Source: Balanoglossus misakiensis
Taxonomy: Eukaryota; Animalia; Hemichordata
Direction: 5' to 3'
Length of the DNA: 64,000 nucleotides
NCBI GenBank assembly: GCA_040954595.2
Contig: JBECUI020000033.1
Span: 62,001-126,000, forward strand
Shown: positions 13,657 through 62,675 of the stretch, one piece after another
How the letters are laid out: every line of letters starts with the position of its first letter
Position numbering within the stretch: position 1 is the first letter of the stretch
The notes under the pieces: generated by a model
The model's input: the letters and a program-made list of their open reading frames with translations, nothing else
What the model was told of the DNA's origin: nothing
Database searches by the model: none
Made by a program: the position numbers and the translations under genes

Positions 13657-15469
13657 AAACGGAATGGGGGGGGTCGGAATGGGGGTTCTCTATGGGGTAA
13701 AAAAGAAGCTTCTTTTCATCGGAGGTATTTCACTCAAGAACCGTAGAATTTCTAATGGAAACGGAATGGGGGGGGCGGAATGGGGGTTCTCTATGAGGGT
13801 AAAAAAGAAGAATCTTCTTTTCATCGGAGGACTTTCACTCAAGAACCGTAGAATTTCCAATGGAAACGGAATGGGGGGTCATGAGGGTAAAAAAGAAGAA
13901 TCTTCTTTTCATCGCAGGTATTTCACTCAGGAACCGCAGAATTTCTAATGGAAACCGAATGGGGGGGTCGGAATGGGGGTTCTCTATGGGGGTAAAAAAG
14001 AAGAATCTTCTTTTCATCGGAGGTATTTCACTCAAGAACCGTAGAATTTCCAATGGAAACGGAATGGGGGGTCATGAGGGTAAAAAAGAAGAATCTTCTT
14101 TTCGTCGGAGGTATTTCACTCAAGAACCGTAGAATTCCTAATGGAAACCGAATGGGGGTCTCTATGGGTAAAAAAGAAGAATCTTCTTTTCATCGCAGGT
14201 ATTTCACTCAAGAACCGCAGAATTTCCAATGGAAACGGAATGGGGGGGGTCGGAATGGGGGTTCTCGATGAGGGTAAAAAAGAAGAATCTTCTTTTCATC
14301 GCAGGACTTTCACTCAAGAACCGCAGAATTTCCAATGGAAACGGAATGGGGGGGCATGAGGGTAAAAAAGAAGAATCTTCTTTTCATCGCAGGACTATCA
14401 CTCAGGAACCGCAGAATTTCTAATGGAAACGGAATGGGGGGGGTCGGAATGGGGGTTCTCGATGAGGGTAAAAAAGAAGAATCTTCTTTTCATCGGAGGA
14501 CTATCACTCAGGAACCGCAGAATTTCTAATGGAATCGGAATGGGGGGGCATGAAGGTAAAAAAGAAGAATCTTCTTTTCATCGGAGGACTATCACTCAGG
14601 AACCGCAGAATTTCTAATGGAATCGGAATGGGGGGGCATGAAGGTAAAAAAGAAGAATCTTCTTTTCATCGGAGGACTTTCACTCAAGAACCGTAGAATT
14701 TCCAATGGAAACGGAATGGGGGGATCTATGGGTAAAAAAGAAGAATCTTCTTTTCATCGGAGGACTTTCACTCAAGAACCGCAGAATTTCCAATGGAAAC
14801 GGAATGGGGGGTCATGAGGGTAAAAAAGAAGAATCTTCTTTTCATCGCAGGTATTTCACTCAAGAACCGTAGAATTTCCAATGGAAACCGAATGGGGGGA
14901 TCTTTATGGGAGTCAAAAAGAAGAATCTTCTTTTCATCGCAGGTATTTCACTCAGGAACCGCAGAATTTCTAATGGAAACGGAATGGGGGGGGTCGGAAT
15001 GGGGGTTCTCGATGAGGGTAAAAAAGAAGAATCTTCTTTTCATCGCAGGACTTTCACTCAGGAACCGCAGAATTTCTAATGGAAACGGAATGGGGGGGGG
15101 TCGGAATGGGGGTTCTCGATGAGGGTAAAAAAGAAGAATCTTCTTTTCATCGCAGGACTTTCACTCAGGAACCGCAGAATTTCCAATGGAATCGGAATGG
15201 GGGTCTCTATGGGTCAAAAAGAAGAATCTTCTTTTCATCGCAGGACTTTCACTCAGGAACCGCAGAATTTCTAATGGAAACGGAATGGGGGGTTCTCGAT
15301 GGGGGTAAAAAAGAAGAATCTTCTTTTCATCGCAGGACTTTCACTCAGGAACCGCAGAATTTCCAATGGAAACGGAATGGGGGGTTCTCGATGGGGGTAA
15401 AAAAGAAGAATCTTCTTTTCATCGCAGGTATTTCACTCAGGAACCGCAGAATTTCCAATGGAAACCGAA
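13657..15469. repeat. Tandem array A: 19 units, period 88-107 bp, near-constant core with variable G-rich linker
   Basis: Core GGTAAAAAAGAAGAATCTTCTTTTCATCG..GAACCG(T/C)AGAATTTC(T/C)AATGGAAACGGAATGGGGG starts at ~13697, 13798, 13886, 13991, 14079 ... 15396. Confidence 0.97.
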
Positions 15470-15472
15470 ACC

Positions 15473-17835
15473 CTAGGGATTCTGGACCCTATCCAGAAGT
15501 TCTCTTACAACCCTCTGACAGTTCGAGACATCTTTCTTGAGCTGACCTATGGCTCTTTTCCCCTCAATGACATCTTGTGACCGGATAGCTTTCTCAAGTT
15601 TCGTACAAGCCTGGACAACCTGAGGCATCTCCATGTTCAAGGCGCTTCCCTTCATAGTATGAACCTTTCGTTTAAGCAGCTCCCAATTGTCTGTCTTGTA
15701 ATCCATATCTTTGAGCTCTTGTTCGAACTTTTGCATCAGAGGTTCCAGGAGGCTTTGCATAATCTGTTCATCGCCAAGAAAATTTTCTACTGCTGCGGTG
15801 TAGTCAAAAATAGCCTCCTCCTCATAGGATGACTGAGGGGTCTCTGCTGCCAAAGTAGCTGGGGAAATTTCTTCGAGATGCTTTTCAAGAAGAGGTAAAA
15901 TGTGTTTGCTTTTGAAAGGTTTGGTAATAAAATCCGTCATGCCGCAGGCCAAACAACGTTCTTTTTCTTCGGGGAGGGCACTGGCGGTAACAGCTATTAT
16001 AGGCATTGTGAGACCTAGTTCCCGAATTTTCCGGGCGGACTCATATCCATTCATCTCAGGCATTTGACAATCCATGAGGATCAGATCCAACGAGGTATCG
16101 ATGGCTAGTTTCAGGGCTTCCTTTCCGTTGACTACCTCTTTCACTTCGTACTGGTGTTTTTCTAAAATGGTTCTGATCAGCTTTCGATTTACTTCATGGT
16201 CTTCCGCTATAAGGACTCGTCCCTTTGAGTTGTAGCTGTTCCTGGGACTTGGTTGTTGGTCATGTTCAATAATCTCCAGTTCCAGCGTGTCGTCCATATG
16301 CACTTCTTTGTAGATTAGCCGAAAGATCTTTTCGGCTAATTGCTTTTGGCTAATGGGCTTGGTCAAGTGAGCATCAAACCAACCCAGCAGTCTCATTTTG
16401 GCTTCTAAACTGCCCTGTTTTCCTTTTTGGGACATCAGGATGAGACGAGATCCCAGAAAATTACCTTCGGAACGAATCTCGCTGGCCAGTCGCCAACCAT
16501 CCATTCCCGGCATTGTCTGGTCAATAAGAATAAAACCAAAGGGCTCCTCGTCTAAGGCCTCCCTCCGTATAAGTTCCAGAGCCTTGGTTCCGTTTTCAAC
16601 TTCAGAGACTGAATTCCCCAATCCTTCAAGACGACTTAGCAGACCGCGAATAACGCTGTTATCATCAATAACCAAGGCCTTAATTCCCTCATAAAAATTG
16701 GAAGGAATTACTGGAAGCACATTGGGATCTTCTTCTCCGCGAGCCAGCTCAAGGGTAAAGGTAAAAACAGAACCCACCCCTTCCTCGCTATCAAAGCTTA
16801 AAATTCCACCCATTTGCTTAACAAGGTTCTTGGAGATAACAAGCCCCAGTCCTGTTCCTCCATACTTACGGGTTGTAGAATTTCGGCCTGGTGGAAGGCA
16901 AGGAAGAGGTTTTGATGCTTATCCTTAGGAATGCCGATTCCAGAATCGGCTACATCAAAGCGTATAGAAGCCTGGTGCGGCTCCACTTTCTGGGCCTCAA
17001 CAATGAGCACTACATGCCCTTTATGGGTAAAATTGATTGCATTATTAATGAGATTGACAAGAATTTGCCGTATTCTCATTGGATCCCCCAGAAGCTGGAT
17101 GGGGAGTTGGGGATCCAGATAGAAACCGATATCAATGTTCTTGTCATGGGTTACCAGGGTTACCAGATCAATGGTTTTTTCTACCAGGTCGGCAAGTTCA
17201 AAATGCGTTTGTTCCAGGCTGAGCTGCCCAGCTTCCATTTTCGAGAAATCGAGTATGTCATTGATGAGGGCAAGAAGGACTTCGGCGGAAAAATGTATAT
17301 GGGAAGCATATTCGGCCTGTTCATGGTCTAAGAGTGTTTCCCTGAGAAGTTCGGTCATGCCTAAGATTGTGTGGATGGGAGTACGGATTTCGTGACTGGT
17401 GTTAGCTAGAAACTCACTTTTAATTTTAATGGTTTTTTTTGCCTCATCCCAGGTACGCAACAGGTTTTCTTCCAAAACTTTAAAGGTGGAAATATCGTTG
17501 AAAACAGCCAGGGTACCGGGTGACCCCTCGTAGTCACAACGAACAAGAATAACCTGCACCCATTTACCTCCTGTCAGTCGTAGGTGGGCACGTTGCGGCT
17601 GTTTAGTTTTCTTATGAACCCGAGCATAAACAGATCTCCAAATGCTCTGGTCTTCGTGATATATTAAGTCTTTGATTAGTTTAGGAAGACATCGGAGCTT
17701 CAGTCCCGACACGCTGCAGAAAGCTGAATTGACCTTTCTTATGATTCCTCCAGGGGCAATGTAAATAACCCCTTCAGGAAATTCGTGAAAGAATTCTTGG
17801 GAGATCATGTTTGCAAAAGAAGCGGTCATATTCAA
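15473..17835 (-). CDS. Hybrid sensor histidine kinase (PAS-HisKA-HATPase-REC-REC-HPt), frameshift near 16870
   Basis: FLANTSHEIRTP H-box, NLINNA N-box, DSGIGI, two receivers (ILIDQTMP, LMDCQMP), HPt VHTMKGSA. Confidence 0.92.
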
Positions 17836-19552: not shown

Positions 19553-19579
19553 GGGGAACCTCAGCTGTGGACACCGCTC

Positions 19580-26435: not shown

Positions 26436-26522
26436 CGGAGCGGGAGGGATTCGAACCCTCGGTACCTTGGTAGATACACACGCTTTCCAAGCGTGCACCT
26501 TCGGCCACTCGGTCACCACTCC
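26436..26522 (-). tRNA. tRNA-Ser(GGA)
   Basis: Anticodon arm CACGC-TT GGA AA-GCGTG, long variable arm, GGTTCGAATCC; CCA not encoded. Confidence 0.96.
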
Positions 26523-26531
26523 TAAACCACT

Positions 26532-26619
26532 CGGAGAGAGAGGGATTCGAACCCTCGGTACCGGAATCCGGTACAACGGATTTCGAGTCCGCCCGATTCA
26601 ACCACTCTCGCATCTCTCC
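26532..26619 (-). tRNA. tRNA-Ser(CGA)
   Basis: Anticodon arm GCGGA-CT CGA AA-TCCGT, long variable arm, TTCGAATCC. Confidence 0.96.
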
Positions 26620-26625
26620 TGACAG

Positions 26626-26699
26626 CATGCCCAAGAGGACTCGAACCTCTGACCTTTAGGTCCGCAACCTAACGCTCTATCCATCTGAGCTATGAGCAC
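26626..26699 (-). tRNA. tRNA-Arg(GCG)
   Basis: Anticodon arm TTAGG-TT GCG GA-CCTAA, D-loop AGATGGATA, GGTTCGAGTCC. Confidence 0.94.
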
Positions 26700-26711
26700 A
26701 TAAAACACAAT

Positions 26712-26797
26712 CGGAGAGGGTGGGATTCGAACCCACGGTACAGTTCCCCATACAACTCCTTAGCAGGGAGCCGATTCAACCACTCTCGCACCTCTCC
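26712..26797 (-). tRNA. tRNA-Ser(GCT)
   Basis: Anticodon arm GCTCC-CT GCT AA-GGAGT, long variable arm. Confidence 0.96.
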
Positions 26798-27021: not shown

Positions 27022-28728
27022 TCGGAATCAACCCCCCTTCTTGGTAGTAAACGATAAGAAGAATCTGCTTACTGTTTGCCAACCGCCTGCATACCCTTAT
27101 GGAGAACTTCCAAAATACCAATTGCCCACCCTACCCAGAGGCCCAAAGCAAAAAGCCAAGCTCCCCCCACGAGCTTCTCCCACTTCCAGCAAGTCTCTAG
27201 GCGCCCGGGCGGGCTTTACGGGGCTTCGGTCCTTACGGACCGCCTTCGGCGCCCCTCCAATCCCTGCGCAGGGCAATCCCCACACTCCCTTCAACGGCTA
27301 ACATCGGAATCAACCCCCCTTCTTGGTAGTAAACGATAAGAAGAATCTGCTTACTGTTTGCCAACCGCCTGCATACCCTTATGGAGAACTTCCAAAATAC
27401 CAATTGCCCACCCTACCCAGAGGCCCAAAGCAAAAAGCCAAGCTCCCCCCACGAGCTTCTCCCCACTTCCAGCAAGTCTCTAGGCGCCCGGGCGGGCTTT
27501 GCGGGGCTTCGGTCCTTACGGACCGCCTTCGGCGCCCCTCCAATCCCTGGCGCAGGGCCAATCCCCACACTCCCTTCAACGGCTAACATCGGAATCAACC
27601 CCCCTTCTTGGTAGTAAACGATAAGAAGAATCTGCTTACTGTTTGCCAACCGCCTGCATACCCTTATGGAGAACTTTCAAAATACCAATTGCCCACCCTA
27701 CCCAGAGGCCAAAAGCAAAAAGCCAAGCTCCCCCCACGAGCTTCTCCCACTTCCAGCAAGTCTCTAGGCGCCCGGGCGGGCTTTGCGGGGCTTCGGTCCT
27801 TACGGACCGCCTTCGGCGCCCCTCCAATCCCTGGCGCAGGGCCAATCCCCACACTCCCTTCAACGGCTAACATCGGAATCAACCCCCCTTCTTGGTAGTA
27901 AACGATAAGAAGAATCTGCTTACTGTTTGCCAACCGCCTGCATACCCTTATGGAGAACTTCCAAAATACCAATTGCCCACCCTACCCAGAGGCCCAAAGC
28001 AAAAAGCCAAGCTCCCCCCACGAGCTTCTCCCCACTTCCAGCAAGTCTCTAGGCGCCCGGGCGGGCTTTGCGGGGCTTCGGTCCTTACGGACCGCCTTCG
28101 GCGCCCCCTCCAATCCCTGGCGCAGGGCCAATCCCCACACTCCCTTCAACGGCTAACATCGGAATCAACCCCCCTTCTTGGTAGTAAACGATAAGAAGAA
28201 TCTGCTTACTGTTTGCCAACCGCCTGCATACCCTTATGGAGAACTTTCAAAATACCAATTGCCCACCCTACCCAGAGGCCAAAAGCAAAAAGCCAAGCTC
28301 CCCCCACGAGCTTCTCCCCACTTCCAGCAAGTCTCTAGGCGCCCGGGCGGGCTTTACGGGGCTTCGGTCCTTACCGACCGCCTTCGGCGCCCCTCCAATC
28401 CCTGGCGCAGGGCCAATCCCCACACTCCCTTCAACGGCTAACATCGGAATCAGCCCCCCTTCTTGGTAGTAAACGATAAGAAGAATCTGCTTACTGTTTG
28501 CCAACCGCCTGCATACCCTTATGGAGAACTTCCAAAATACCAATTGCCCACCCTACCCAGAGACCAAAAGCAAAAAGCCAAGCTCCCCCCACGAGCTTCT
28601 CCCCACTTCCAGCAAGTATCTAGGCGCCCGGGCGGGCTTTGCGGGGCTTCGGTCCTTACAGACCGCCTTCGGCGCCCCTCCAATCCCTGGCGCAGGGCCA
28701 ATTCCCACACTCCCTTCAACGGCTAACA
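27022..28728. repeat. Tandem array B: 6 near-identical units of ~283-286 bp
   Basis: Unit starts TCGGAATCAACCCCCCTTCTTGGTAGTAAACG at ~27022, 27304, 27589, 27873, 28159, 28444; each unit contains the 71-bp REP-like element. Confidence 0.97.
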
Positions 28729-30817: not shown

Positions 30818-33800
30818 ATGGGAAATAATAATCAAATATATAGAGAATATAGCTATACAAAAGCAATAAGTTTTCGTTTGGAACATCAAAAGGGCACATT
30901 GCCTGCCTCAGAAGAGCAAAAAGCTGATTTACAGAAGCTAATAGAACTTGGTAAAACACTCTATACGCAAATACGAAAATTCATCTTTATTGAAGATGAA
31001 TACGGCAACTTTAAAAAAGATAGACAGGGCAACAGGCGACTGGAACAATCTGTTTCTATTAAAAAAAAATGGCTTAAACTATATCTCAGAAATGATTTCT
31101 ATTCTCAAGGCAGGAAAAGGCAAACCGAATTTAATCTACCCAATTTTCCCTATCTCATAACGGCATTTCGAGAATGGCTTCATAATTGGAATAAATATCT
31201 GAAAGGATTGGAAAACTTAACCAAAGAACCTGACTATCAAAAAAGAAGACTCGTGGAAATTGCCGATATTTTGGCACAGATAAACAGCAAGAAAGTTTTT
31301 CCCTTTGTTAAAGATTTCATAGAACATTCCAATCATAAAAATGAACAGGAGTCACATCAGAATTTAGAAAAGACAAGCCAAGAATTGGAAAAGGCATTAA
31401 TGGCTTGTGGGGGAGAATATTTGTCGGAGCAAACAGTCGGTATGGTTGTCGCTCGAGCAAGCTTGAACGATTATGCGGTTCATCAGAATCCTAAAAACTA
31501 TAAAGAGATACTAGAAGAATTAGAAAGTAAGAAAGCTTTAGACGATGTAGAATATAGAGAGAAAAAAGGATACAAAGCAGCACAAAAAAGCAAACTTTAC
31601 AAACTGATCATTCAAGGGGAGAGTAAAGAAAAAATTAAAGAGGAATGCGAACTCTTTGCTGAAGACAATGACTATTGTCTGGATAAAGTTATAGAATTAA
31701 CTCAAGAAATCATTCAATTAAGCAAGAAAAGAGACAAAAGAAATAATTTGTCTTCAAAAACCAAAAAAGTAATCACACAATTCAAGATAGAGCGAGGGTA
31801 TTATTTCATCAGGGCCACAAGAGGCAAACCGCACAATAAATATTTCAGAAAATATTGGAATTATTGTACAGAATATAGAGAAGTTGTTCAAAGAAGGGGT
31901 AAGTTAAAAGCCCGTATAGCTAATATAAAGCGGGAAGAAAAAGAAAGTCAAAACCTTAAATATTGGTCACTCATTTTTGACGATGGTCGAGACAAATACT
32001 TATGGCTTGTTGCCAAAGATAACATAAAAAAAGCTAAGGAACTAATAGAAAGAAATTTTGTTGGTGAAGGTTGTGCTCTTCACAAAGTCCACTCTTTGAA
32101 CTACCGGAATTTACATAAACTCTGCTTTGCAGAAGAAAGTAGTTTTGTTGAAGAAATGCCTGATAGATTAAAGGAGTTGCAGCATAATGCCAAGAAAGCT
32201 ACTAATAATGAAAGCAATAGAAATTATCAAATAGGCAACACAAAAGATGACTTAGCTTTGAAATTTTTAAAAGAGGCCATAAGAAGCTATTATCTAGAAG
32301 GACATATCGATCTCAAATCTTTTGACATTTCTAATCTGCAGGATACAAAAACCCTTAGCAAGTTTGCAGAAACATTAGAAAAAGAGTGTTATAAGCTTAC
32401 GAGCATCCCTATTTCTAAGGAGGAAGCGCAAGATTTTGTCGATGAATGCAAAATATTGACCTTCCGGATCACCTCTTACGACTTGGAAAACAGAAACAAA
32501 AATACCCATCAGACACCGGAAAGCGATTACCGTAGGCAAACAAGGGAAGTGTGGCAGAAATTCTGGAATAAGGACGCAGGTCTTCGATTAAATCCCGAAA
32601 TAAAAATTCGTTACCGTCGTGGGAATGAGGAACTTGCAGAGTATATGCAAAACAAGGTTTCGATTTAGCTAAAGACAAAAATCGTTTTTTACAAGAACAA
32701 TACACCTGTAATATGACCTTTGAGCTCAATGCCGGTAACACACACCCCCAACTTGCTTTCGCAAAAACAGAAAATATATGTGAGGAGATAGACAAATTCA
32801 ATCAAGAATTTAACGAGAAATATTGGGAAAATTCCTGGAAGTACGGTATTAATAGGGGAAATATAGGTGAAACAACACTGTGCCTTGCTAAGTTTAATAG
32901 CAATGAACTCTATTATCACAATGACAAACAATTTCTAAAGCCGAACTTTCCTCAGGGTGATAAGGATATTAAGGTCTATGAACTGAAAAAAGAACACTAC
33001 AATAAAGAAGCTGTTTCTGAGCTGGAGACTAAGCCAAGAGAAACACGTAAAGAAAAAAGGGTTATAGCTAATTTATCCTATTTTCTCGATAAGATAGAGG
33101 ATGAAACTTGGTTTGAAAAGAAATCCTGCACCTATATTGATTTGACAACCGCTAAAGTTATGAAGAACAAAATTATTTCAAACGGAGACATTCTCACTTT
33201 TTAAAACTCAAGAGAGAGGTAGCGAAACGCCTTTTATTTCACCACGTTGCCAGCAGCATAATTACAAGCGAAAACAAAGTATTAAAATGGGGAAGTGACA
33301 ATTTAGAAAAGCCTGAGTCGATTGGGCTTAGAATTTTTCCTTACGAAAAAGAAGATGTCATATATACTTATGAAGGTAAACTTGGGAGAAATTTTGACGG
33401 TTGTTGCTAGAAGAGAACCACACGTACTTGCGTGAAAATGTCCGACATGACTTGCAAGATTTTTTGGACAGTTTAGTAGAAGGAAAAACGAAATTCCAGG
33501 ATCAACAACAAACATGTACCTACGGCGAATAAGATTAAATACTTGCAGAATGCCTTAGTGGCGAACATGGTAGGAGTTATTTCTCATTTGCAGGAGGCTT
33601 ATCCGGGCTTTGTCATATTGAAAGATTTGGATGAAAAAACTTTGAATAACCATTTTGCCTCTTTAAATATTCATATTTCTCGACGATTGGAATGGTCTTT
33701 GATTAAAAAACTTCAAACACTTGGAAAAATTCCTCCCCATGTCAAAGATATTCTGGAGCTTAGAAACAAAACTCATTATGGACAAAAAAGGTTAATAAAG

Positions 33801-34358
33801 AAGGGAGCTAACTATAAATTTCATTGGTGGTTGAAAAGAGAGAACAATAAAAGCAGAAGTCATGAAGAAAAAGAACTTCAAAAAGAAAAATATTATCAAG
33901 AGGAAAATAGTAGAATTAAAGGAGAAGAGGATTTCTCTACACAAATTGGGGCATTGATTTTTATAGATGGAGATATAAACAGTACTGGATGCCCCTATTG
34001 TGGGAAGAAATTAAGTTGGGAACAAATAATATCACAAAATGAAAAGATTAAAGATGACCTGGAATTTAACTTGCATCGGTATATCTGTGGTTGCCATGAG
34101 GATCCACAGTGCTCTTTTGATACATATGATTTCCCTGGTGTTAAAAAAGAAAACATAAAAGAAGAGACAAAAAAATATATTGATGAATATAAAGAAAAAA
34201 CGAAGAAAATAAAAAATGATAATTTGTTTTTACAGGAAATCAATGATCCAAACAAAGTGGCTGCTTATAATGTTGTAAGGAAGATAAAAGAATATGAAAA
34301 GATAGGGAGACTTAAAATTCTTTCTTCCGACCGTCAATTTCCCAATCAAGATGAGTAG
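30818..34358 (+). CDS. cas12: Type V CRISPR effector, Cas12a2/Cms1 (Cas12a3-like) lineage, RuvC catalytic triad substituted; split by four apparent 1-bp deletions (~32655, ~33200, ~33402, ~33480)
   Basis: N-terminal YTKAISFRL, RLNPEIKIRYR, NRFLQEQY, RuvC-I YGINRG, NGDILTFLKLK, ANMVGVISHL, RuvC-II VILKDL, Zn ribbon CPYC..CGCHEDPQC, RuvC-III NDPNKVAAYNV; ~1180 codons when reassembled. Confidence 0.88.
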
Positions 34359-34360
34359 GG

Positions 34361-35651
34361 GAGACTGTAAATAAATCTGTGTAAAGCTCCCAATCTTCGA
34401 TATAAGAAGAGAGGAGCTTTTACTTTGTACGACAGAAGAGTTTAACGAGCTGGTAGATAAGCTGGCTCAGAATCTGAAAACACCACAGATGTATCTGCAA
34501 TGACCAAGATGCTTGCCAAGGTCGCCATGGAGCGAATCCTGGAGATTGAAATGGAAGGGCATCTTGGTGAGAAGAAAAAAGGGAAAAGGCCATCGAAGAA
34601 TTCCCGCAATGGGTACACCCAGAAAACCCTAAAAACTGATAATGCTGAAATCGATTTAGATATTCCGAGAGATCGAGAAGCTACTTTTGAACCACAATTG
34701 CTAAAGAAAAACCAGCGTCGCAGCCAAGATCTCGACAGTAAGATCTTAACCCTTTACGCCAAGGGTATGACAACTAAAGACATCTCAGAGATTTTCAAGG
34801 AAATGTAGGATGTCTCACACACTCTGATATCTAAGATCACAGAGGGAGTGATGGAAGAGGTCCTTGCCTGGCAGAATCGCCCCCTAGATCCCATTTATCC
34901 TATTCTCTACTTGGACTGTATAGTTATCAAAGTTCGGGAAAACAAGCGAGTAATCAACAAGAGGGTGTTTCTTGCTCTAGCCGCAAATGCTGGGGGTATG
35001 AAGGAGCTTCTCGGCCTGTGGATAGCTTGAAACAGAAGGGGCCAAGTTCTGGCTGAGCGTTCTAACAGAGCTCCACGAGGAGTTCAGGATATATTCATCG
35101 CCTGTGTCGATGGCCTCACTGGATTTCCCGATGCGATTAACACGGTATTTCCGAATACAAAAGTCCAGTTCTGCCTTGTTCATCAGGTCCGCAATTCTTT
35201 AAAGTTTGTTTCCAACAAAGATCGAAAAGTGCTATCAGCTGATCTGAAAAGAATCTACAGTTCGATCTCTGAACAGAAAGCTCGCTTAGAGTTGGATCGG
35301 TTTGCTGAGAAGTGGGATTCACAGTATTCCTCTATCAGTAAAAGCTGGCATAGGCACTGTGATAATCTGATTATTTTATCTGATTATCCAGATGAAATCC
35401 GCAAGATTATATACACGACTAATGCGATTGAATCAGTAAATAATGTGATTCGAAAGTCCATCAAGAACAGGAAGATATTCCCTAATGATGGCTCAGCGTG
35501 TAAGATGATTTATCTGGCAATAGAACAGGCTTCAAGGAAATGGTCTATGCCACTTCGAAACTGGAAGCCTGCCATGAATAGATTCGCCATCAATTATGAA
35601 GGGCGGTTCTGATATAGAAAATGAGCTTTACACAGAAAATTTTACAGGCTC
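34361..35651 (+). mobile_element. IS256-family element with disrupted transposase
   Basis: 29-bp terminal inverted repeats, 24/29 identical (GAGACTGTAAA..TGTGTAAAGCTC); NSRNGY, IPRDR, YLDCI, IYTTNAIES motifs; internal stops; no target duplication. Confidence 0.95.
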
Positions 35652-35682
35652 AGCATTAAGTCAAGAAGCCCTAGGGCAACGA

Positions 35683-37539: not shown

Positions 37540-37914
37540 CGTTGATGCAGGATAGCAGCAAAAACCAACCAAGTCAAGAAGAGAAACGAGCTGGGACTAG
37601 TTATGCATAGTTATTGGGTTAAATAAGCTGAAGAGTTTTCTCTCCGGAGAAATAAGATTCTGCTACTATAGAGGGGTAGGTAATATTTTTTGATCACGCG
37701 GCATATTTCATAACTTTTCTTTCTAAATCTTTTTTTTGAGATAAGGAAGTTATACAATCTCCACCGAAATTCAAAAGCCTCTGTGTTATCTTTGTTGGAA
37801 TCGTTTCCAGATCTTCAAAAATAGTTAAAGAATCAAACCGAAATGCTTTTTTCCTTGTGTTCACAGTAATCTTTCTAAAATAATGCTTGCTAATTGGGCC
37901 TTCTCTTTGTTGCC

Positions 37915-38546
37915 TACAGCAAAATGGACTCAGGTCCATCAACTGGGTTAGCAGCTTTTTCCGGATCTCTCGATTGTGCTTGGAAATCTGATACGGTAGG
38001 CCGGTTCCCATCCATTTGACGAGGCTGTAATACCCGGGTGATGTGCGAACAAACTGGCCGGGCTCACCACTGGCCTTTGCCCGTTTGAGTTCAGTCACCA
38101 ATTGAGCGTTCATGGTTGCTTCGGGAGTCTTACCAGAGGTGTTCAACCAGCCCTGACTCATGGCCTTGTCTGTAATGTTTCGGTAATGCATGGAATTCCG
38201 ATTAGCAAACTGATCCAGCACCTTTTCAGCGGCATCCAGAAATGAATACGTTTCTGTTGTATTGGCCCAAGTGCTCTCTTTTTTTTGTTCGGGCTCCTCT
38301 GCATCGCAAACAGCAACAGTCTGCGTATCCCGAAGAAAGAACCTCTGAGGCGCAACCTTCACAAAGGTCGATTGGTCCCCATGCTTTTTGATATCTGAGT
38401 AAAGACGGGCACTGACAGTGGCCGCTGGAGTTTTGCCATCGCTTGACCAGAAGCCCGCTTCCATAATCCGCTCGGCCGATCTCCTTGGCATGGAGAGGCG
38501 TTCCTGCGTCCTTCAATATCTGTATGGCTGCGTCTTGGACATTCAT
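37915..38546 (-). pseudogene. mrr: Truncated Mrr-like restriction protein with two tandem HARE-type winged-helix domains; nuclease domain lost
   Basis: Two DAA..IL/VL...GKTP.AT(V/M)SA/NA repeats; ends at LLTQLMDLSPF where the Mrr catalytic domain would begin; unrelated sequence follows. Confidence 0.7.
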
Positions 38547-38557
38547 AGCGATTTCCT

Positions 38558-39844
38558 GGTAGTGTCAAGAATTTGCGCACTTTCAAATCTCCAATGTTGA
38601 AAGAGCCTAACTTACTTCTTGCCTTATCGCTTTAAGTAAGTCCATATTCAAATACTTTTCTGTACTCCATATTGTTCCCATGATGTACCTGAGCCTGGCA
38701 GCTGATAGCATAAGGGCCGAATCCCCATCGGGGAAATGTTCTGCTATTTGGTTCTTCGAACCAGGGTTCTGCGAACCAGGGTCCTGCGTTTGATTTCTTT
38801 CATGATTCTTTCAAGAGGATTATTAGTCCTGATCCGAATCCAATGTTCCTGAGGGAAATACCTATGCTCAAGAGTTTCGTGGATATAGTTTTTCACCATC
38901 TTAGCAGCCTTGGGAAGTTTCATATTGCGGAGTTTCGCTTCAATCAGTTGAGCCTTCTCAAGAGCAGCATCACGATCTTCTTGCGCATAGAATTGCCTTC
39001 ATGCTTTAGGGAAAAACTCTTCGATGGATTCAGGCCAATCCGATGCATTTGTCGCTTATGAAGAGCTTTAGTATCCTTAAACCCTTAGGTTGTCAAGTGT
39101 GCAGGAAGTTGCTCCATCCAGCTTTATCTTCCTTTTCACCTTCAACAACAAACACTACGATATCCGCTTCCTGAGACGCCTATCGCTACCAGGATGCTTA
39201 CATTTCGCACTTTCCGGCCCATGGAGAGATTGAGGACTGACCCATCCAGATACACATAAGGGAAGTTCTCATTGATGGGTTGATTCCGCCAAGTATTGAT
39301 TCTCTCCTAAGAGATCCTGGTTCAAATTGCTCATTGTCCCAGGGCTGACTTTGGTTCCCCCAAGAGCCTCGGTAATATCTTTAATTCGGCGCACTGAAAC
39401 ACCGGCTAAATACATTTCAACCAATGCGTCTTCAACGGATGTTTCCCGGCGTTTATAACGCTCAATAATTGCTGTTTCGAATGGAAGCCGAAGTAGGGAC
39501 AGGTCGCGACCTGTCCCTACTCTTGAAAGCAGTGATCTCCAACTTCCTGGTGTAATGTCCGGCACGAGTATCTTTTCGTGCATCCCTAGGTTCGTATTTT
39601 TCAGCCTGAAGTAAAGGATCTGCCTCCGCATTGAGCATGGCATTCAAGGTTTCCTCATACGGTTTTTTTAACCATTTGGCTGCTCTGTACAAGACCTTAA
39701 TCAATCTGTATGATCTTTCCCGTGGGGTCTCTGACTTCATTCTTTCCTCATGTGTGAATGGTTTTGCTTTGATTCCATTTCAACATTGGAGGACATTTTT
39801 TTTCAATGCCTTTTTAGAATGTGCGCAATTTTTTAAACACTACC
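38558..39844 (-). mobile_element. IS256-family element (second subtype), degenerate
   Basis: Ends GGTAGTGTCAAGAATTTGCGCAC / GTGCGCAATTTTTTAAACACTACC; ETAIIERYKRRETSVE, MYLAGVSVRR, IRTNNPLERIMKEI fragments. Confidence 0.9.
39493..39520. repeat. Perfect 28-bp GTAG-type REP palindrome
   Basis: GTAGGGACAGGTCG|CGACCTGTCCCTAC; identical copies at 45504-45531 and 45757-45784. Confidence 0.9.
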
Positions 39845-39954: not shown

Positions 39955-41223
39955 TCATGCTGACGGCGGCTCGGCGGTCTCATTTCTTAGTTGAGCAAGG
40001 ATCTCGACACCAAGGTTCCGGTTCAATCTACCCTGATCACTATTGATAATGGGTACGTGCCAGAGAGAACACGAACCGTTTTGTTTACCCAGGAACCGGC
40101 CGGCAATACGGGATTCGGCGGTGGCCGGATAGATTAAATTGCTGGACTCGGCATGGAAATATTTATTGTAGACAAACATCTGTTTCAAATCATTGACATC
40201 AGGCTGCTTGTCTCTGGATGCCACCTTCCATTTGGTGTCGAAAACGACACGGCGGTTCTCCCTTAAATCATCGGTCCAATTAATGACAATATCCGGCTGC
40301 ACTGTCCTTGCCCGCCCCTTATCGAGCTGCCAGAATTTCCGGGATTTCTGAGTTTCCACGCGAAAGCCGGTACCCTTGAAGCACTCTTGAGAACGGTGGC
40401 TACGTAGGATTCAAAAAGGGCCTCCATGGGGAACATAATGGCGAGTACAGATCGATTTCCCCCGCACACATCAGGAAAGTAATTGAGAATAATCATCTCG
40501 GCAAGCCGGATGGCAGACCGGTATCGTTCCGCCATTCGGCCATAACGAAGCCTTTCAAAGGATGATCGATGAAAGGAGCCGTCGGAAACCCCTTCAAACT
40601 GATACTGAAGCATCATGGTATCCCGTCTATGAGCTGGATTACGGGATACCTCCCGCAAAACTGTCAATGCCTTAAGCAGGATCTGATTAAAAACATTGTC
40701 CTCGGTATAATCCTGAGCTGATGTAACAAACCGCTCCTTTCTTACCAGATTCTGCTTCAGCTGCTCCTGAAAAAGAAGCCGTCCCTTCAAAACCCTTCTA
40801 TTCAAGGTCTTCTGTATATATTGACGCAGGAGTCCTTCAGAAAGGAGCCCTCGGCACTGGTCCAGAAACATCTGATAATAGAGATCAAGAAGGGGTTCCC
40901 TGAGTAGCTTCAACGAGGCATTTGATGTTGTTGTAATGTAAGAAATCCGCTGATTTTGAGGCATGTTGATCAGCACATCCCGCCAGAGTTCCTTGTCCGA
41001 AACCCTGCCGGTCTTGGGTAGTACCTCAATAACCAGGTCCTTAACCTGAATAACACCAACATAGTTGACAAATCGTAGAGAACGATGTCCCAGTTGAAAA
41101 TAGGACTCCCTATGCTTTCCAGGTATGCAGCCAGGAGTTCAAAATGTTGGTTGGTAAAAAGCCTTTAGTATTGACTCTCAAAGTCTCGTACTCAAAGACC
41201 TGAATGACCTTAGGCGTTCTCAT
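39955..41223 (-). CDS. mcrC: McrC-family nuclease subunit, frameshifted
   Basis: [13 protein letters not shown] start, YVGVIQ, IEVLPK, FPMEALFE, QPDIV..FDTKWK, DLKQMFVY PD-(D/E)xK motif. Confidence 0.9.
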
Positions 41224-42977
41224 AAAGGGAAGCAAAGTCTTCTTCGGAGAGCTCCGAGACGTCTCTCAAAACGTACACATCCTTGGTCTCCATGTCGATA
41301 TTCCCATTTCCAGGATCAAGCAGAGTTGCCTGATCCTCCTCCTTGATGGGCTTAACAAACCGCTCTCCCAGAACCATACCCACACGGGCCAGATCACCGG
41401 CAAAGTACTCTTCAAGAAGTGGTATAACGTTATAACTAAATACCTTTCGCAAAGCCTGAAGTGCGTTTTCTGCCTTGATAATGTCCATAAAGTAGGAATG
41501 CCCAAGGGAATGATCCCGGTCAATAAGCATCGTGATCCGCTGATTAATCACCGTCAATAGCTTGCGAAGGTCCACAGGAAAGTTTTCTGTTGTTTGATCA
41601 GTTCCGGCTCAGGAAAACACTCCTTAAATTGAAAGCGGCGGCGAAGTGCTGAGTCCAAAGCGACAATACTGCGGTCAGCCGTATTCATCGTCCCCACGAT
41701 GTAGAGGTTGGGAGGTATTCCAAATCGTTTCTTTGAATACGGCAGCGTTACCATCACTTCATTTTCGGCCCCCAACCTCTTATCCGGCTCAATAAGAGTT
41801 ATCAGCTCACCAAAGATTGAAGCAACAATGCCGCGGTTAATCTCGTCAATGAATATCGCATATTTTTTATCCGGTTGGGCCAGTGCTCTTGCTGCAATCT
41901 GTTTGAAAATACCCGGTTCTATCCTGTAGCTAAGATCAGAATCCTCTGAGCCTTCCCATCACCGGTTTAATGCCTTCAACAAAATCTTCGTAGCTATAGG
42001 ACTGATGGAATGTGGTGAACACATAGCGGATATCCTCCGTTCGCTTTTCCTTCTCCTGGTAGTCCTTTAAAAATTCCTGAAAGCTCGGAGCCATGTTTTC
42101 AATCAGCTTCTTATCAACAGACCAGGCAGACTTCTCATCTTTCCAGAAAACCAGGGGCTCTGCCACATTCTGAAGGTTGACATGTGGGCAGTCTCTCTTT
42201 GTGTGCATCTGGAGATTTGACCAAATGGTGGCTCTGGGCTGTTTACTTGACGATGTGGCTATCTTGGCCTGTAGAATCGGGTGTTTCACCATGAGGGGTA
42301 CGGTGACTGCTTTATCAAGATCCAGCAATGCCATCGCCGCGGCCTGCCACCAGGAGAGTTGTTTCTCATCCATAAGTTTCATAGCGCGCTCCTCATCCGT
42401 CTGGACAGAGGCATGATCTACAAACCGTTTCTTGGCAAGTTCTGTCAGAAGTTTGTATGTCTTTCCCGGTTCCCGGAGGCCCGTAGTAAATGATGTTCAA
42501 ATTGATATCCTCCATGGGAGATTTTATGGATGAAGCGGCGTTTGAAACGAGATCCGCAAGGGTCAGTCCGAAATATTTTTTAAGAATCTGCTCCTCAAAG
42601 AGTTTCTCATCATCGGGTTTTACCTTCATCACAGTGGAATTGTAGTTCGGAGTCCATCCCTTCATGACGCCTTCATAGCGGCTGGGGCTGTCCCGTTTCT
42701 TGATCACCTCATAGGAGCGTTTGCGCCACCCCTCCCGTTCCTCCCAACCCTCCAATTCGGTGGCTTCAGAGTCAATCCTCCCCAGGAGGATAATACCCTC
42801 GTCATTGCCATGACAGAGGAAGAAGTAATCTCCAGGTTTCATTTCATGGGCAAACGCCTCCCCTTGCCCCTTCTGCGTGCCAAGAGCTACGGTTACCCAT
42901 TGACGGTTAAGCAGATTAGCCCTCTCCTCCTTTGTAAAGTCCTTTGCACCGTGAGAAATCTTCCAGATCGTTACCAT
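41210..42977 (-). CDS. mcrB: McrB-family AAA+ GTPase, several frameshifts
   Basis: [61 protein letters not shown]. Confidence 0.92.
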
Positions 42978-44853: not shown

Positions 44854-45177
44854 CCTGTAACCGGAAGCTAAACTAACCATCGACAGCCAGCGACGCTTCA
44901 TACAAAGCATGTAATAAATCGTCCACATCCGGTTTTCCCGTCTTGCTGGCGTTTGATGATGTCAGCAAGGCAAAACTTATATCAAGTTCCGGATTGTAAA
45001 ACAGGAAATTTTCCGAACCTATGCTCCTCCCATAGGAGCCCAGAAAATAGGTATTATAATAAAAATCTTACGGACTCCATAGCCAAATACCGGATCATCC
45101 GCCGCTGTGTAGTCCTTCACCGAATCATAGAGTTCTGCGCGTATGGTGGAATCCACCTGACCTTGGGAACTGTAGCA

Positions 45178-46389
45178 GGTAGTGTTTAAAAGATTGCGCA
45201 CATTCTAAAAAGGCATTGAAAAAAAATGTCCTCCAATGTTGAAATGGAATCGAATGTAAAACCATTCACACGGAGGACAAAATGAGGTCAGAAAAAGACC
45301 CCACGGGAAATATCATACAGATCGATGAAGGTCTCCTACAGAGCAGCCAAATGGTTAAAAAACCGTAGAGGGAACCTTGAATGCCATGCTCAATGCAGAG
45401 GCAGATTTTTTACTTCAGGCTGAAAAATACGAACCTACGGATGCACGAAAAGATACTCGTGCTGGACATTACACCAGGAAGTTGGATATCACTGCTTTCA
45501 AGAGTAGGGACAGGTCGCGACCTGTCCCTACTTCGGCTTCCATTCGAAACAGCAATTATTGAGCGTTATAAACGCCGGGAAACATCCGTTGAAGAAGCCT
45601 TAGTTGAAATGTATTTAGCTGGTGTTTCAGTGCGCCGAGTTAAAGATATTACCGAGGCCCTTTGGGGAACCAAGATAAAGCCCTGGGACAATGAGCAATT
45701 TGAACCAGGATCTCTTAGTAGAGAATCAATACTTGGCGGAATCAACCCATCAAGGAGTAGGGACAGGTCGCGACCTGTCCCTACTTCGGCAGCGACATGT
45801 CCCTACTTCGGCAGCGACATAGTTGGATACGGAAATGCTGTATTCGTTTTCTGCAATTTCCTTGTTGTATACTAGTTTTGCGAAGTGTTTAATTGGTGGT
45901 GTTTTAAAAAATTGCGCACATTCTAAAAAAGGCAAGGATACTAAGCTCTTCATAAGCGACAAATGCATTGGGTTGGCCTGAATCCATCGAAGAGTTTTTC
46001 CCTAAAGCACGATGGCTATGAAACTTCCCAAGGCTGCTAACATGGTGAAAAACTATATCCACGAAACTTTTGAGCATAGGTATTTCCCTCAGGAACATTG
46101 GATTCGGATCAGGACTAATAATCCTCTGAAAGAATCATGAAAGAAATCAAACGCAGAAACCCTGGTTCGAAGAACCCTGGTTCGCAGAACCATACTAGCA
46201 GAACATTTCCCCCGATGGGGATTCCGGCCCTTATGCTATCAGCTGCTAGGCTCAGGTACATCATGGGAACAAAATGGAGTACAGAAAAGTATTTGAATAT
46301 GGACTTACTTAAAAGCGATAAGGCAAGATGTACGTTAGGCTCTTTCAACATTTGGAGATTTGAAAGTGCGCAAAATTCTTGACACTACC
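45178..46389 (+). mobile_element. IS256-family remnant(s), same subtype as 38558-39844, inverted orientation, with a nested extra left end at ~45895
   Basis: GGTAGTGTTTAAAAGATTGCGCAC ... GTGCGCAAAATTCTTGACACTACC; internal GGTGGTGTTTTAAAAAATTGCGCAC. Confidence 0.88.
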
Positions 46390-56010: not shown

Positions 56011-56397
56011 GATAATCCCCCAGCAAGTAGGGGTCGAACTCGTGCCCCTGCAATGACTGGTTTATGATTCGGCCTGGTGTAATCGATCGGTGCCCCATCA
56101 GAGGCCTTAACCGTTTGTCTGCCGTCGATTCACAGGGTACCCCTTGTTCCCCAACGAACCTGTATCTGCCAGGTAGAGGTTGACTTGCTGTATTCCTTGT
56201 CGATAAGACTCATGAGCTTGATGATTCTTCTGATTCCCATCACGGCATTCGCGGTGCCTGAGCCATGTGGTAGTTTTATCAATGCGTATTGACACCAGAG
56301 GCTGAGATTCGCACTCCTAAGTAACAGGCTGTATCCCTTTGAGACTCAGTATAGTCATACTCTCCAGGGCCCAGCGAAGCTCATGACATGGTAAAAA

Positions 56398-56482
56398 CGG
56401 AGGAGGTGGGATTCGAACCCACGGTAAGTTGCCCTACTCCGGTTTTCAAGACCGGCACCTTAAACCTCTCGGTCACCCCTCC
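56398..56482 (-). tRNA. tRNA-Ser(TGA)
   Basis: Anticodon arm CCGGT-CT TGA AA-ACCGG, long variable arm, GGTTCGAATCC. Confidence 0.96.
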
Positions 56483-56496
56483 AAATATCGCCATCT

Positions 56497-56525: not shown

Positions 56526-57010
56526 GAAGTTCCCTGGAGGGTTTCTTCTTTTCTGACAGTTTGGGAGCGACTGTGTTCTTATCCTTACCTAGCATAGTGA
56601 AAGCGTAGGCAGTTTTTGTTCTCTATAAATTTCAAGATATCCTGTAGACTCCGATTTCTCAAAGTAGAAAGGTCTTTATGTGAAGGATTTACTGGATAAA
56701 GGTTCGGGTCTTGGAAGGAAGGGGGTGTAGGTTTCCAGGAAACGGCTGCCTTGTGTCCCTCTTATCTACAGTGGGGAGTAAATTTTTTTCTGCTAAGGGA
56801 AACGATAAGAAGAATCTACTTTTTGCAGATGATTGAAACAAGATTTAAGGAGGCAAGGACGACCTGGAAGAGCCGGCAGGCGTTCCGTCACCAAGAAATC
56901 CATAATCGAGACCCAAAAGGAGCAAGACAGGACATGAAGCTACACACAGCTTGAAGCTTCGCCTCCAAGCCTTATTCGTTGTCAGAGACCAGTCTGGATC
57001 GGAATTGATC

Positions 57011-58044: not shown

Positions 58045-58077
58045 TTAAGTATATTTTACATTGTAAAATATACTTAA
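58045..58077. promoter_or_regulatory. Perfect 33-bp palindrome (putative operator) between the divergent desaturase and ald genes
   Basis: TTAAGTATATTTTACA-T-TGTAAAATATACTTAA. Confidence 0.65.
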
Positions 58078-58271
58078 GACAATAAGAGTTTCCTTGTAAA
58101 AACAGACTGAGGTTTTCATTTACCTGTTCCTTCCTCAAGCTGTTTTCAATGGATCGGGTTCTTAAGAGGTCTATACTTAGGATTGATGCTAGCTCTCTAA
58201 GAACTTCTCCGTCTTAAAGATTCATAACTGGATTTTATCTAACCTTAAAATCCTATAACGATGGAGGTTTT

Positions 58272-59381: not shown

Positions 59382-59431
59382 GAAATTTGTGAGTTCCTTA
59401 TGAACAAAAGGCCTCGGGTTACTAAAGGAAT

Positions 59432-60115
59432 CTAGGGGTTTCGTTCGTGGTTCTTTCTGTCCGGTGGCCTTAGGTTTTGCTGGAAATAACTTCCCAACTC
59501 GGTAGCTACATCCCTCATAAGATAGTTTTCCCCAGTGATTTCTTTGAGGGAAGTCACCCCCCTGTTGACAATCCCACAGGGGACTATCCATCCGAAATGG
59601 TTCAAATCAGGCTGGATATTCAAGGCAAAACCGTGGGATGTGACATTTTTTTTGATTGCCAGTCCCATGGCGGCGATTTTTTTATTTCCTATCCAAACGC
59701 CTGTGTAGGCTCTCTCCTGCCTGGCCTCGACACCCTGTACCTCGGCCAGGTATTGAATAAGGATATTTTCCACAGTCTGCACAAAATGGCGTACTCGGTA
59801 GCCCCAGTCAAGCATGTTCACAAAGAGATAGCCCACCAGTTGCCCAGGACCATGATAAGTAATTTCTCCTCCTCTGTCGGTGCGAATAAGTTCTACACCC
59901 ACGGTGGCGGGGTCGACAAGGAGATTGGCTTCTTGATTCTGTCGAAGCCCCGAAGTAATTACCGGGGGATGTTCCAGTAGCCAGAGAGTGTCATTTCTTT
60001 TCCCTGCAATCCGCTCCGCATGGAGTTGCTGTTGACGAATCAGGGCCTGATGGTAGGGGACAGGGTGAAGAGAAATTAAAACATCCAACACAACTTTAAG
60101 AGACTCCACCGACAC
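59432..60115 (-). CDS. lipB: Lipoyl(octanoyl) transferase
   Basis: LLEHPPV, DRGGEITYHGPGQLVGY, KIAAMG, SHGFALN, IVPCG. Confidence 0.97.
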   Translation of the reverse strand: MSVESLKVVLDVLISLHPVPYHQALIRQQQLHAERIAGKRNDTLWLLEHPPVITSGLRQNQEANLLVDPATVGVELIRTDRGGEITYHGPGQLVGYLFVNMLDWGYRVRHFVQTVENILIQYLAEVQGVEARQERAYTGVWIGNKKIAAMGLAIKKNVTSHGFALNIQPDLNHFGWIVPCGIVNRGVTSLKEITGENYLMRDVATELGSYFQQNLRPPDRKNHERNP

Positions 60116-60357
60116 TTATTCAAAGGAAATCCCTGAAAGGCTCTAGATTTCTTGAATCTTCTGCCCTCTCCAGAAGAAAAAACAGAGTGCAGGCAGGTTT
60201 TTATCAATTCTATCATGACCCTGGCCCTGTGTCGATCAGGGCTAGAGACTGAAAACGTAAATTCTCTGTTCTTAAGGTTCCTCGACTTTGAAGCAGCCTT
60301 CCTCCTGATCTTGTTACAAAGGAAAAAGAGGTGGAATTTCCAAAGAAGGAGAAATGT

Positions 60358-61791: not shown

Positions 61792-61931
61792 GCAAACATT
61801 TGGCTCTGGAACTTCGGACTTGAGAAAATAGATTTATATGCTTGAATACAACTCGAGGTAGAATTCTGTTTTCGGGCATCCGGAAGAAGAACTCTTTTTG
61901 TAGTTAAGTTCTGCTAGAAGGTTTGAATCTC

Positions 61932-62675
61932 GTATTGGGCCGGTTTTCTGTTGGTTAGTAGATTCTTCTGTTTGAGTTTCGTATTGGGCCGATTTTCTGT
62001 TGGTTAGTAGATTCTTCTGTTTGAGTTTCGTATTGGGACCGGTTTTATGTTGGTTAGTAGATTCTTCTGTTTGAGTTTCGTATTGAGACCGGTTTTCTGT
62101 TGGTTAGTAGATTCTTCTGTTTGAGTTCCGTATTGAGACCGGTTTTCTGTTGGTTAGTAGATTCTTCTGTTTGAGTTCCGTATTGGGCCGGTTTTCTGTT
62201 GGTCAGTAGATTCTTCTGTTTGAGTTTCGTATTGAGACCGGTTTTATGTTGGTTAGTAGATTCTTCTGTTTGAGTTTCGTATTGAGACCGGTTTTCTGTT
62301 GGTCAGTAGATTCTTCTGTTTGAGTTCCGTATTGGGACCGGTTTTCTGTTGGTTAGTAGATTCTTCTGTTTGAGTTCCGTATTGGGCCGGTTTTATATTG
62401 GTCAGTAGATTCTTCTGTTTAAGTTCCGTATTGAGACCGGTTTTCTGTTGGTTAGTAGATTCTTCTGTTTGAGTTTCGTATTGGGCCGGTTTTCTGTTGG
62501 TTAGTAGATTCTTCTGTTTGAGTTTCGTATTGGGCCGGTTTTCTGTTGGTTAGTAGATTCTTCTGTTTGAGTTCCGTATTGAGACCGGTTTTCTGTTGGT
62601 TAGTAGATTCTTCTGTTTGAGTTCCGTATTGAGACCGGTTTTCTGTTGGTCGGTAGATTCTTCTGTTTGAGTTTT
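61932..62675. repeat. Tandem array C: 15 units of 49-50 bp
   Basis: Consensus GTATTG(GG/AGA)CCGGTTTTCTGTTGGTTAGTAGATTCTTCTGTTTGAGTT(T/C)C repeated head-to-tail. Confidence 0.97.

What the first reader, a model, noticed from the sequence alone, without database searches (positions are those of the whole stretch)
13657..62675. Three unrelated tandem arrays each carry the same dyad AG-N-AGA-W-TCT-N-CT once per unit
Seen: array A has the perfect 19-bp dyad AAAAGAAGA-A-TCTTCTTTT in 18 of 19 units (the first unit is a variant). Array B has TAAGAAGA-A-TCTGCTTA in all 6 units (e.g. 27055-27071). Array C has AGTAGA-T-TCTTCT (reverse complement AGAAGAATCTACT) in its units, with one variant in the last. 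A solitary copy at 56800-56820 shares 18 bp (AAACGATAAGAAGAATCT) with array B. The arrays otherwise differ in sequence and period (~88-107, ~285, ~50 bp), and most periods are not multiples of 3. Inference: ~40 copies of one palindromic site amplified three times independently suggests a binding or recombination site for a dimeric protein, such as parS/matS-like chromosome-organising clusters, repressor-titrating decoys, or a nicking site that triggers local amplification.
Basis: partly seen in the sequence, partly recalled or inferred. Interest (0 to 1): 0.72.

Follow-up and report, generated by a model that had tools for sequence, protein, structure and literature searches.

The report
One short site, three repeat arrays
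In an uncultured spirochaete bacterium, three otherwise unrelated runs of repeated non-coding DNA each carry the same 13-letter site once per repeat, far beyond chance, and the site likely marks where an unknown protein triggers local copying of the DNA around it.

Summary
There are 39 exact sites (18 + 6 + 14 in three intergenic arrays, plus one solitary) where 0.06 are expected. The three units share 12 of 13 columns; 0 of 4,000 null trials reached that. Short-read contigs show raised depth over all three arrays, so they are not long-read artefacts. Two corrections: the site is a directional AGAAGAATCTNCT, a perfect dyad only in array A, and array richness is not special, since a family relative has 60 non-coding arrays in 1.7 Mb. 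In that relative, unrelated array families share at most 9 of 13 columns. The site is not enriched in 401 class genomes or the 38 family genomes, and no such array turned up in viral or metagenome scans. It is not a CRISPR repeat, terminator, REP or replication-polarised motif. Best reading (0.45): a lineage-specific recognition site that seeds BIME-like tandem amplification of random flanks. Selected protein-binding clusters (0.2) and a passive relic of a dispersed element (0.2) remain open. No protein was identified and the rest of the genome is not held.

The parts
13657..15469 (.). Array A: 19 units of 88-107 bp, non-coding, starting right behind the stop codon of a histidine kinase/response regulator gene (minus strand); perfect 19-bp dyad in 18 units, 3-bp deletion in the outermost unit
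27022..28728 (.). Array B: 6 units of 282-286 bp between an AlkB-like gene and the tRNA-Ser/Arg cluster; each unit holds the site and a GC-rich REP-like stem-loop
61921..62674 (.). Array C: 15 units of 49-50 bp behind a TPR protein gene and about 20 bp from an IS256-type remnant; site on the opposite strand to A, B and the solitary copy
56800..56821 (+). Solitary copy of the site; 21 of 22 bases identical to array B; 325 bp upstream of tRNA-Ser(TGA)
13416..13487 (+). REP-like stem-loop 170 bp from array A, 89% identical to the one in array B units; dispersed in this genome (X1 depth 67-81) and matched in 15 of 38 family genomes
61884..61903 (+). Possible decayed copy of the site about 20 bp outside array C; not significant (3 of 20 shuffles score as high)
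26436..26797 (-). tRNA-Ser(GCT), Arg(GCG), Ser(CGA), Ser(GGA) cluster before SRP RNA and dnaX; nearest site of array B lies 260 bp upstream
56397..56483 (-). tRNA-Ser(TGA), adjacent to Ser(GCT) in relatives G352 and G232 but 29.6 kb away here

Best explanation
Three unrelated non-coding tandem arrays and one solitary copy share the site AGAAGAATCTNCT, which is likely the recognition site of a lineage-specific, probably dimeric DNA-binding or nicking protein that would seed local tandem copying of whatever DNA surrounds it. Shown: the shared site, one per unit, in intergenic DNA behind gene ends; unrelated flanks and periods; conservation of the site within units; real repeats; an array-prone family. 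Inferred: (1) the site first spread as the core of a short dispersed element of 13-22 bp or more; (2) a protein binds, stalls replication or nicks there; (3) repair synthesis or slippage duplicates a flank of arbitrary length that must keep the site to amplify again; (4) unequal recombination then shuffles the two-state variants seen among units. It would work like BIME-2 amplification by TnpA-REP but is not a REP/BIME member. The protein is not identified.
For: Sharing is 12 of 13 columns against a maximum of 10-11 in 2 x 2,000 nulls. Real-data control: 20 triples of six unrelated non-coding array families in relative G210 share 6-9 of 13. The site sits in the longest invariant block of A and C (0.15 x 0.20), and both broken copies are outermost units. 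Periods have no common helical phase, fitting captured flanks rather than spaced operators. Similarity extends asymmetrically beyond the core. Three kinds of longer palindrome in the window (5 places) are not tandemly amplified, so a generic hairpin effect does not explain it. Family precedent: in G210, arrays of period 112-194 share a short repeat core that also flanks a PF13366 nuclease gene lying among three of them. Literature model: BIME-2 copies are conserved within a locus, vary in linker between loci, and TnpA-REP cleavage with rolling-circle-like synthesis is proposed to amplify them (PMC3333891, passages).
Against: Only four independent instances, all in one 64-kb window. No candidate protein: no Y1 transposase or PF13366 hit among 60 window ORFs scanned, and Y1_Tnp was found in only 1 of 5 relatives, as a fragment. 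Array ends lie 47, 35 and 10 bp from the site, so there is no fixed nick position. The within-array conservation is modest (about 0.03) and leaves out the broken first unit of A. The site is low in complexity and turns up in unrelated simple repeats (3 of 13 metagenome hits). No excess of degenerate copies outside the arrays: 0 at one mismatch (0.96 expected), 17 at two (13.2 expected).
Confidence: 0.45

Rival explanations
1. The arrays are selected clusters of binding sites for one dimeric protein (titration sponge, nucleoid anchor or centromere-like cluster); amplification is ordinary slippage kept by selection.
For: One site per unit, dyad character, site in the invariant block, about 40 copies in 64 kb.
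Against: No common spacing or helical phase. Not conserved in 38 family genomes: 0-18 scattered matches each, and 8 of 8 matches in the five handles examined lie inside ORFs. A relative carries equally many arrays built from selfish-looking repeats.
Confidence: 0.2
2. The site is a passive relic of an old dispersed element or duplicated gene-end segment. An array-prone, IS-rich genome amplified three gene-end regions that happened to hold it, with no protein acting on it now.
For: Graded, non-palindromic similarity beyond the core. All four copies lie behind a gene end in the same sense orientation. B and the solitary copy both precede tRNA-Ser genes that are adjacent in relatives. IS256-type DNA reaches about 85 times single-copy depth in one bin (summed contigs).
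Against: It does not explain why 3 of 3 arrays hold a site seen only once in the other 60 kb, nor its conservation within units.
Confidence: 0.2
3. The shared feature acts in RNA (terminator, pause or RNA-binding site in 3' untranslated regions).
For: In all four places the sense strand of the upstream gene reads AGNAGATTCTTCT followed by T-rich sequence (chance 1 in 8); A folds into a 9-bp stem, z -2.8.
Against: The four sites fold into four different weak structures (-3.8 to -7.3 kcal/mol). No terminator-like hit at the site in B or the solitary copy. Distances to the upstream stop range from 25-191 to 624 nt.
Confidence: 0.07
4. Chance: a low-complexity AGA/TCT word that is prone to slippage appears in three arrays by coincidence.
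For: The word occurs 0-8 times per genome across the class, in Glu-rich coding repeats and in unrelated simple repeats.
Against: 0 of 4,000 nulls, 0 of 20 real triples, and the 21-of-22 match of B to the solitary copy (about 1e-4 under uniform composition).
Confidence: 0.05
5. Long-read or assembly artefact, or decayed CRISPR repeats of the neighbouring Cas12a3-like gene.
For: The window has indel errors that X1 corrects. A Cas12a-family gene lies 2 kb from array B, and the solitary site follows a short hairpin ending like the crRNA handles in the supplement of PMC12851939.
Against: Short-read contigs have raised depth on all three arrays and units carry shuffled two-state variants. The bases after the handle-like end are invariant where a spacer would vary, no array unit matches the handle stem pattern at one mismatch, and there is no repeat-spacer array in the window.
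Confidence: 0.03

Closest known systems
BIME-2 / atypical BIME arrays with TnpA-REP (RAYT) (PMC3333891, passages read; PMC3733652, passages read)
   Same: Intergenic tandem arrays whose units are alike within a locus, differ in linker and length between loci, and share a short palindromic core; enzyme-primed local amplification is the proposed mechanism.
   Different: Core here is 13 bp, AT-rich, a weak or no hairpin, single per unit rather than a REP/iREP pair, with no GTAG- or CGTC-footed stem; no Y1 transposase found in the window.
GxxExxY (PF13366)-linked repeat arrays seen here in relative G210
   Same: Same family of spirochaetes, similar array load (4.3% vs 6.7% of DNA), arrays of different period sharing a short core with captured flanks.
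   Different: Those cores are 9-nt words repeated in tandem that flank the nuclease gene; the window has no such words and its site is absent from G210 array units.
Ssn nuclease / NTS repeats (PMC11893778, three passages read)
   Same: A short dispersed palindromic motif with oriented non-palindromic flanks, cut by a dedicated nuclease.
   Different: NTS is an about 30-bp GC-rich stem-loop; the word 'tandem' does not occur in that paper's main text; no Ssn gene was sought or found here.
matS/MatP and parS/ParB (recalled, no call)
   Same: Short dyad sites bound by dimers; matS is recalled as 13 bp.
   Different: Those are conserved across relatives and occur as spaced single sites, not once per unit of fast-evolving tandem arrays.
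Human minisatellite core / PRDM9 motif (recalled; the paper was not held)
   Same: Unrelated tandem arrays sharing a short core tied to a protein that destabilises them.
   Different: Eukaryotic meiotic system; analogy only.
Borg tandem repeats (PMC9879509, passages read)
   Same: Pervasive, independently arising intergenic tandem repeats, mostly with periods not divisible by three.
   Different: Borg units are described as perfect repeats; the passages read describe no motif shared among them.

Membership tests
REP/BIME | 20-40-nt palindromic hairpin with GTAG or CGTC foot | tested here: not met
   Site folds weakly and differently at each locus; no tagged stem at the site
REP/BIME | Inverted REP/iREP pair per unit | tested here: not met
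   One site per unit, one orientation per array
REP/BIME | Tandem units conserved within a locus, variable between loci | tested here: met
REP/BIME | TnpA-REP (Y1) gene in the genome | not testable with these tools
   No genome held; none among 60 window ORFs
parS/matS-type organising sites | Site conserved among relatives | tested here: not met
   No enrichment in 38 family genomes; 8 of 8 examined matches are inside ORFs; nearest relatives are distant (DnaX 55-57%)
parS/matS-type organising sites | Clustering near origin or terminus | not testable with these tools
   No whole genome; GC skew in the window is uninformative
parS/matS-type organising sites | Cognate binding protein | not testable with these tools
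   Needs pull-down or ChIP
KOPS/Chi/Ter-type polar motifs | Same strand along a replichore | tested here: not met
   C is on the opposite strand to the solitary copy 5 kb away; a local inversion cannot be excluded
Uptake-signal or HIP1-type abundant motifs | High frequency throughout the genome | tested here: not met
   1 exact copy in about 60 kb outside arrays; no excess at 1-2 mismatches
Type V-A CRISPR array | Constant repeat with handle stem plus variable spacers | tested here: not met
   Units near-identical throughout; handle stem pattern matches only at the solitary site, with one mismatch
Intrinsic terminator | GC-rich stem followed by U tract | tested here: not met
   B and solitary copy scanned; all four folded
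GxxExxY-linked repeats | Tandem 9-nt words flanking a PF13366 gene | tested here: not met
   No such words in the window; one weak match of unit A to the flank of a G222 gene, E 0.04
Ssn/NTS | Ssn nuclease gene and GC-rich stem-loop motif | not tested
   Only passages of PMC11893778 read

The most novel reading that the evidence does not exclude
An undescribed site-specific system: a spirochaete protein recognises a 13-bp near-dyad and drives tandem amplification of any DNA around it, building kilobase minisatellites with unrelated units across the chromosome, a bacterial counterpart of core-motif-driven minisatellites.
Probability: 0.25. Interest if true: 0.78.

Novelty: new variant of a known kind. 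Interest (0 to 1): 0.5.

Why it matters
Bacterial tandem arrays are usually put down to sequence-blind slippage or to amplification of one homologous repeat family. A 13-bp site shared by otherwise unrelated arrays would point to a protein that chooses where amplification happens, and it supplies the bait to catch that protein. The relative G210 shows that kilobase non-coding arrays can fill about 4% of spirochaete genomes in this family, which short-read assemblies would be expected to hide. If the site is only a relic, the value drops to a lineage marker.

Tried and rejected
Own genome: not held. Close relatives: none found; best DnaX 55-57% full length among 401 class genomes, best alanine dehydrogenase 79% among 120 listed proteins. 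Motif scans: AGAAGAATCTDCT at most 8 per genome in 401 class genomes; the 22-mer at 3 mismatches in 1 of 38, inside an ORF; units A and C give only weak hits in 8 and 3 of 38 genomes; the order search returned the same 38 genomes. Viral two-copy scans gave 7 + 16 loci, all with spacings divisible by 3 and Glu/Ser-rich translations; the 22-mer gave 0. The one metagenome scan covered only periods of about 39-69 bp: 13 loci, none like the window units; periods like A and B were not scanned there. Promoter role rejected: the site is over 200 bp beyond the promoter-like hexamers and absent upstream of tRNA-Ser(TGA) in G352 and G232. att-like excision between B and the solitary copy rejected: it would remove tRNA-Ser(TGA) and not restore the relatives' order. 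Resemblance to IS256 ends is limited to 8 of 9-10 bases and was not pursued. No site (1 mismatch allowed) within about 1.5 kb of 20 REP-like copies in relatives. No RNA holder listed. Rfam gave only tRNAs and SRP RNA. Literature searches (listings only) showed no paper title or abstract on this site or pattern; most subscription papers are not in the library. Earlier-findings look-ups by place, words and sequence gave nothing on this site. The HARE-HTH protein at 37694-38491 gave only weak Atlas hits and no link to the site.
Full report
Observation. TRF reports three large arrays: A 13657-15469 (period 88, 19.1 copies), B 27022-28728 (285, 6.0) and C 61921-62674 (50, 15.2). Because copies within an array are not independent, I counted each array once. 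The best ungapped 13-column window common to the three units has 12 identical columns. None of 2,000 dinucleotide shuffles (max 10) or 2,000 sets of real window stretches of the same lengths (max 11) reached this. On one strand all sites read AGAAGAATCT[T/G/A]CT; the left half is invariant and only A is a perfect 19-bp dyad. Similarity runs further and asymmetrically: the solitary copy matches B at 21 of 22 bases and A at 27 of 36 columns with a gap; local alignment finds nothing else shared between units.

Are the arrays real? One public run (X1, contigs; 1 holder of 3 listed) has 97% of the sampled words. It shows single-copy depth of about 6.7, pieces of depth 24-25 in B, 36 over C and 20-23 in three of four bins in or overlapping A. 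It also corrects single-base indels in window genes, so the window looks like a long-read assembly with homopolymer errors. X1 may be the same sample and gives no exact copy numbers. Units of A and C carry two-state variants in many combinations, which suggests recombination among units (inference).

Setting. The organism is a spirochaete by its best DnaX and alanine dehydrogenase matches; no whole genome is held. The best DnaX matches among 401 class genomes fall in one family of 38 genomes, at only 55-57% full-length identity. All four sites are intergenic and follow a gene end: A 57 nt behind a kinase/regulator gene, B 624 nt behind an AlkB-like gene, the solitary copy 25 or 191 nt behind a fatty acid hydroxylase gene (frameshift-dependent), C 166 nt behind a TPR gene. 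In each case the upstream gene's sense strand reads AGNAGATTCTTCT (chance 1 in 8). B and the solitary copy lie 260 and 325 bp upstream of tRNA-Ser genes. These tRNAs are neighbours in G352 and G232 but 29.6 kb apart here. The gap holds IS256 remnants, McrBC pieces and a Cas12a-family gene. Each B unit also holds a GC-rich REP-like stem-loop, which has a further copy 170 bp from A and matches in 15 of 38 family genomes; only that part of the unit matches.

Is the site under constraint? With units cut away from the site, it lies in the longest invariant block of A and of C. Only 13 of 89 and 10 of 50 windows of 13 columns are free of shared polymorphism, jointly about 0.03. Against this, the outermost unit of A (left out of that alignment) has a 3-bp deletion in the site and the outermost unit of C has a change at its last base. 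B is too uniform to test. Of 59,591 13-mers outside the arrays, 297 are as dyad-like.

Distribution. AGAAGAATCTDCT occurs 0-8 times per genome in 401 class genomes, a sample of a larger group. The looser pattern occurs 0-18 times in the 38 family genomes. All 8 exact matches in five near relatives lie inside ORFs. The 22-mer appears in 1 of 38 at three mismatches. Two-copy scans of viral contigs (23 loci) and one metagenome scan (13 loci, periods about 39-69 only) gave Glu-rich coding or simple repeats unrelated to the window units. Outside the arrays the window has no excess of near-matches. The site is therefore lineage-restricted as far as searched.

A control from a relative. In 1.7 Mb read of G210's 3.5-Mb contig, TRF found 77 arrays; 65 passed a non-coding filter, and 5 more were dropped as open-frame coding repeats, leaving 60 arrays covering 73 kb, or 4.3%. 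The window's arrays cover 6.7%. G232 showed none in 200 kb. So array richness is a trait of some family members and not itself the finding. G210's arrays fall into six families; 20 triples of family representatives share 6-9 of 13 columns and none carries the window's site. One family (periods 112-194) shares a short repeat core that also flanks a PF13366 (GxxExxY) gene lying among three of those arrays. This is a precedent for a short core with captured flanks giving arrays of different period.

Mechanism. Periods of 49-50, 88-107 and 285 bp share no helical phase, which fits arbitrary captured flanks better than spaced operators. Longer palindromes in the window are not amplified, so hairpin formation alone is not enough. 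RNA folds differ at the four sites and no terminator pattern falls on the two scanned. C is on the opposite strand from a copy 5 kb away, unlike replication-polarised motifs (the expectation is recalled). Cas12a3 crRNA templates in the supplement of PMC12851939 (2 rows seen; one file unreadable and one not searched) end in a handle stem that only the solitary site resembles, and what follows is invariant where a spacer would vary. I favour a protein-recognised site that seeds amplification (0.45), working like the TnpA-REP/BIME model in PMC3333891 (passages) without meeting the REP definition in PMC3733652 (passages). The weak points are four instances, no protein, and array ends at 47, 35 and 10 bp from the site. 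Selected binding clusters (0.2) and a passive relic (0.2) cannot be excluded.

Literature. Nine searches on this question (listings only) showed no description of this site or of unrelated bacterial arrays sharing a short core. Passages were read of PMC3733652, PMC3333891, PMC9879509, PMC12851939 and PMC11893778. The matS/parS, KOPS/Chi and minisatellite-core comparisons are recalled.

Verdict. A real, statistically solid, lineage-restricted feature with an unproven mechanism; a new variant of repeat-seeded intergenic arrays. Interest 0.5; 0.78 if a site-specific amplifier is shown.

Noticed in passing
window 30818-34358 (+): Cas12a-family gene in three ORFs (PADLOC Cas12a E 4e-80, 5e-26, 2e-26); the first piece matches only Cas12a3 structures significantly in the PDB (E 1e-31 and 3e-26) and the last has a CxxC zinc motif. 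No CRISPR array or cas1/2/4 hit in the window; an IS256 remnant starts right behind the stop. 'spiroch' does not occur in the main text or searched supplements of PMC12851939.
   Followed up: partly
G210:C1, 1.7 Mb read (L202-L206, L212-L291): 60 non-coding tandem arrays, 4.3% of the DNA, mostly a 47-bp unit (26 arrays) and a mosaic family of periods 89-221 (25 arrays); a third family surrounds a GxxExxY gene at 1,247,630-1,247,971.
   Followed up: partly
window 26797-56397: tRNA-Ser(TGA) is split from the Ser(GCT)-Arg-Ser-Ser-ffs-dnaX cluster by 29.6 kb, partly low-GC defence-like DNA; adjacent in G352 and G232.
   Followed up: partly
window 38558-39844, 45178-46389, 62696-63857, 34359-35652: IS256-type remnants; summed X1 depth 583 in bin 45151-45801 against about 6.8 suggests a large expansion.
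   Followed up: partly
window 39492-39521, 45503-45532, 45756-45785: Perfect 30-bp palindrome with GTAG near both ends, inserted in the IS256 remnants; looks like a GTAG-tagged REP doublet.
   Followed up: no
window 58045-58077: 33-bp AT-rich palindrome with a one-base centre, about 200 bp upstream of the alanine dehydrogenase gene; possible operator.
   Followed up: no
window 13416-13487 and each array B unit: About 70-bp GC-rich REP-like stem-loop family, matched in 15 of 38 family genomes, 19 scored copies in G328; no Y1 transposase found in G328 with PF01797.
   Followed up: partly
window 37694-38491 (-) and 39955-42977 (-): Double HARE-HTH protein next to fragmented McrB/McrC-like genes.
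   Followed up: partly
L178 / L240 (G210:C1 about 565,000): 180-bp unit repeated about 10 times that appears to hold tRNA-end-like arms around a terminator-like hairpin (by eye).
   Followed up: no
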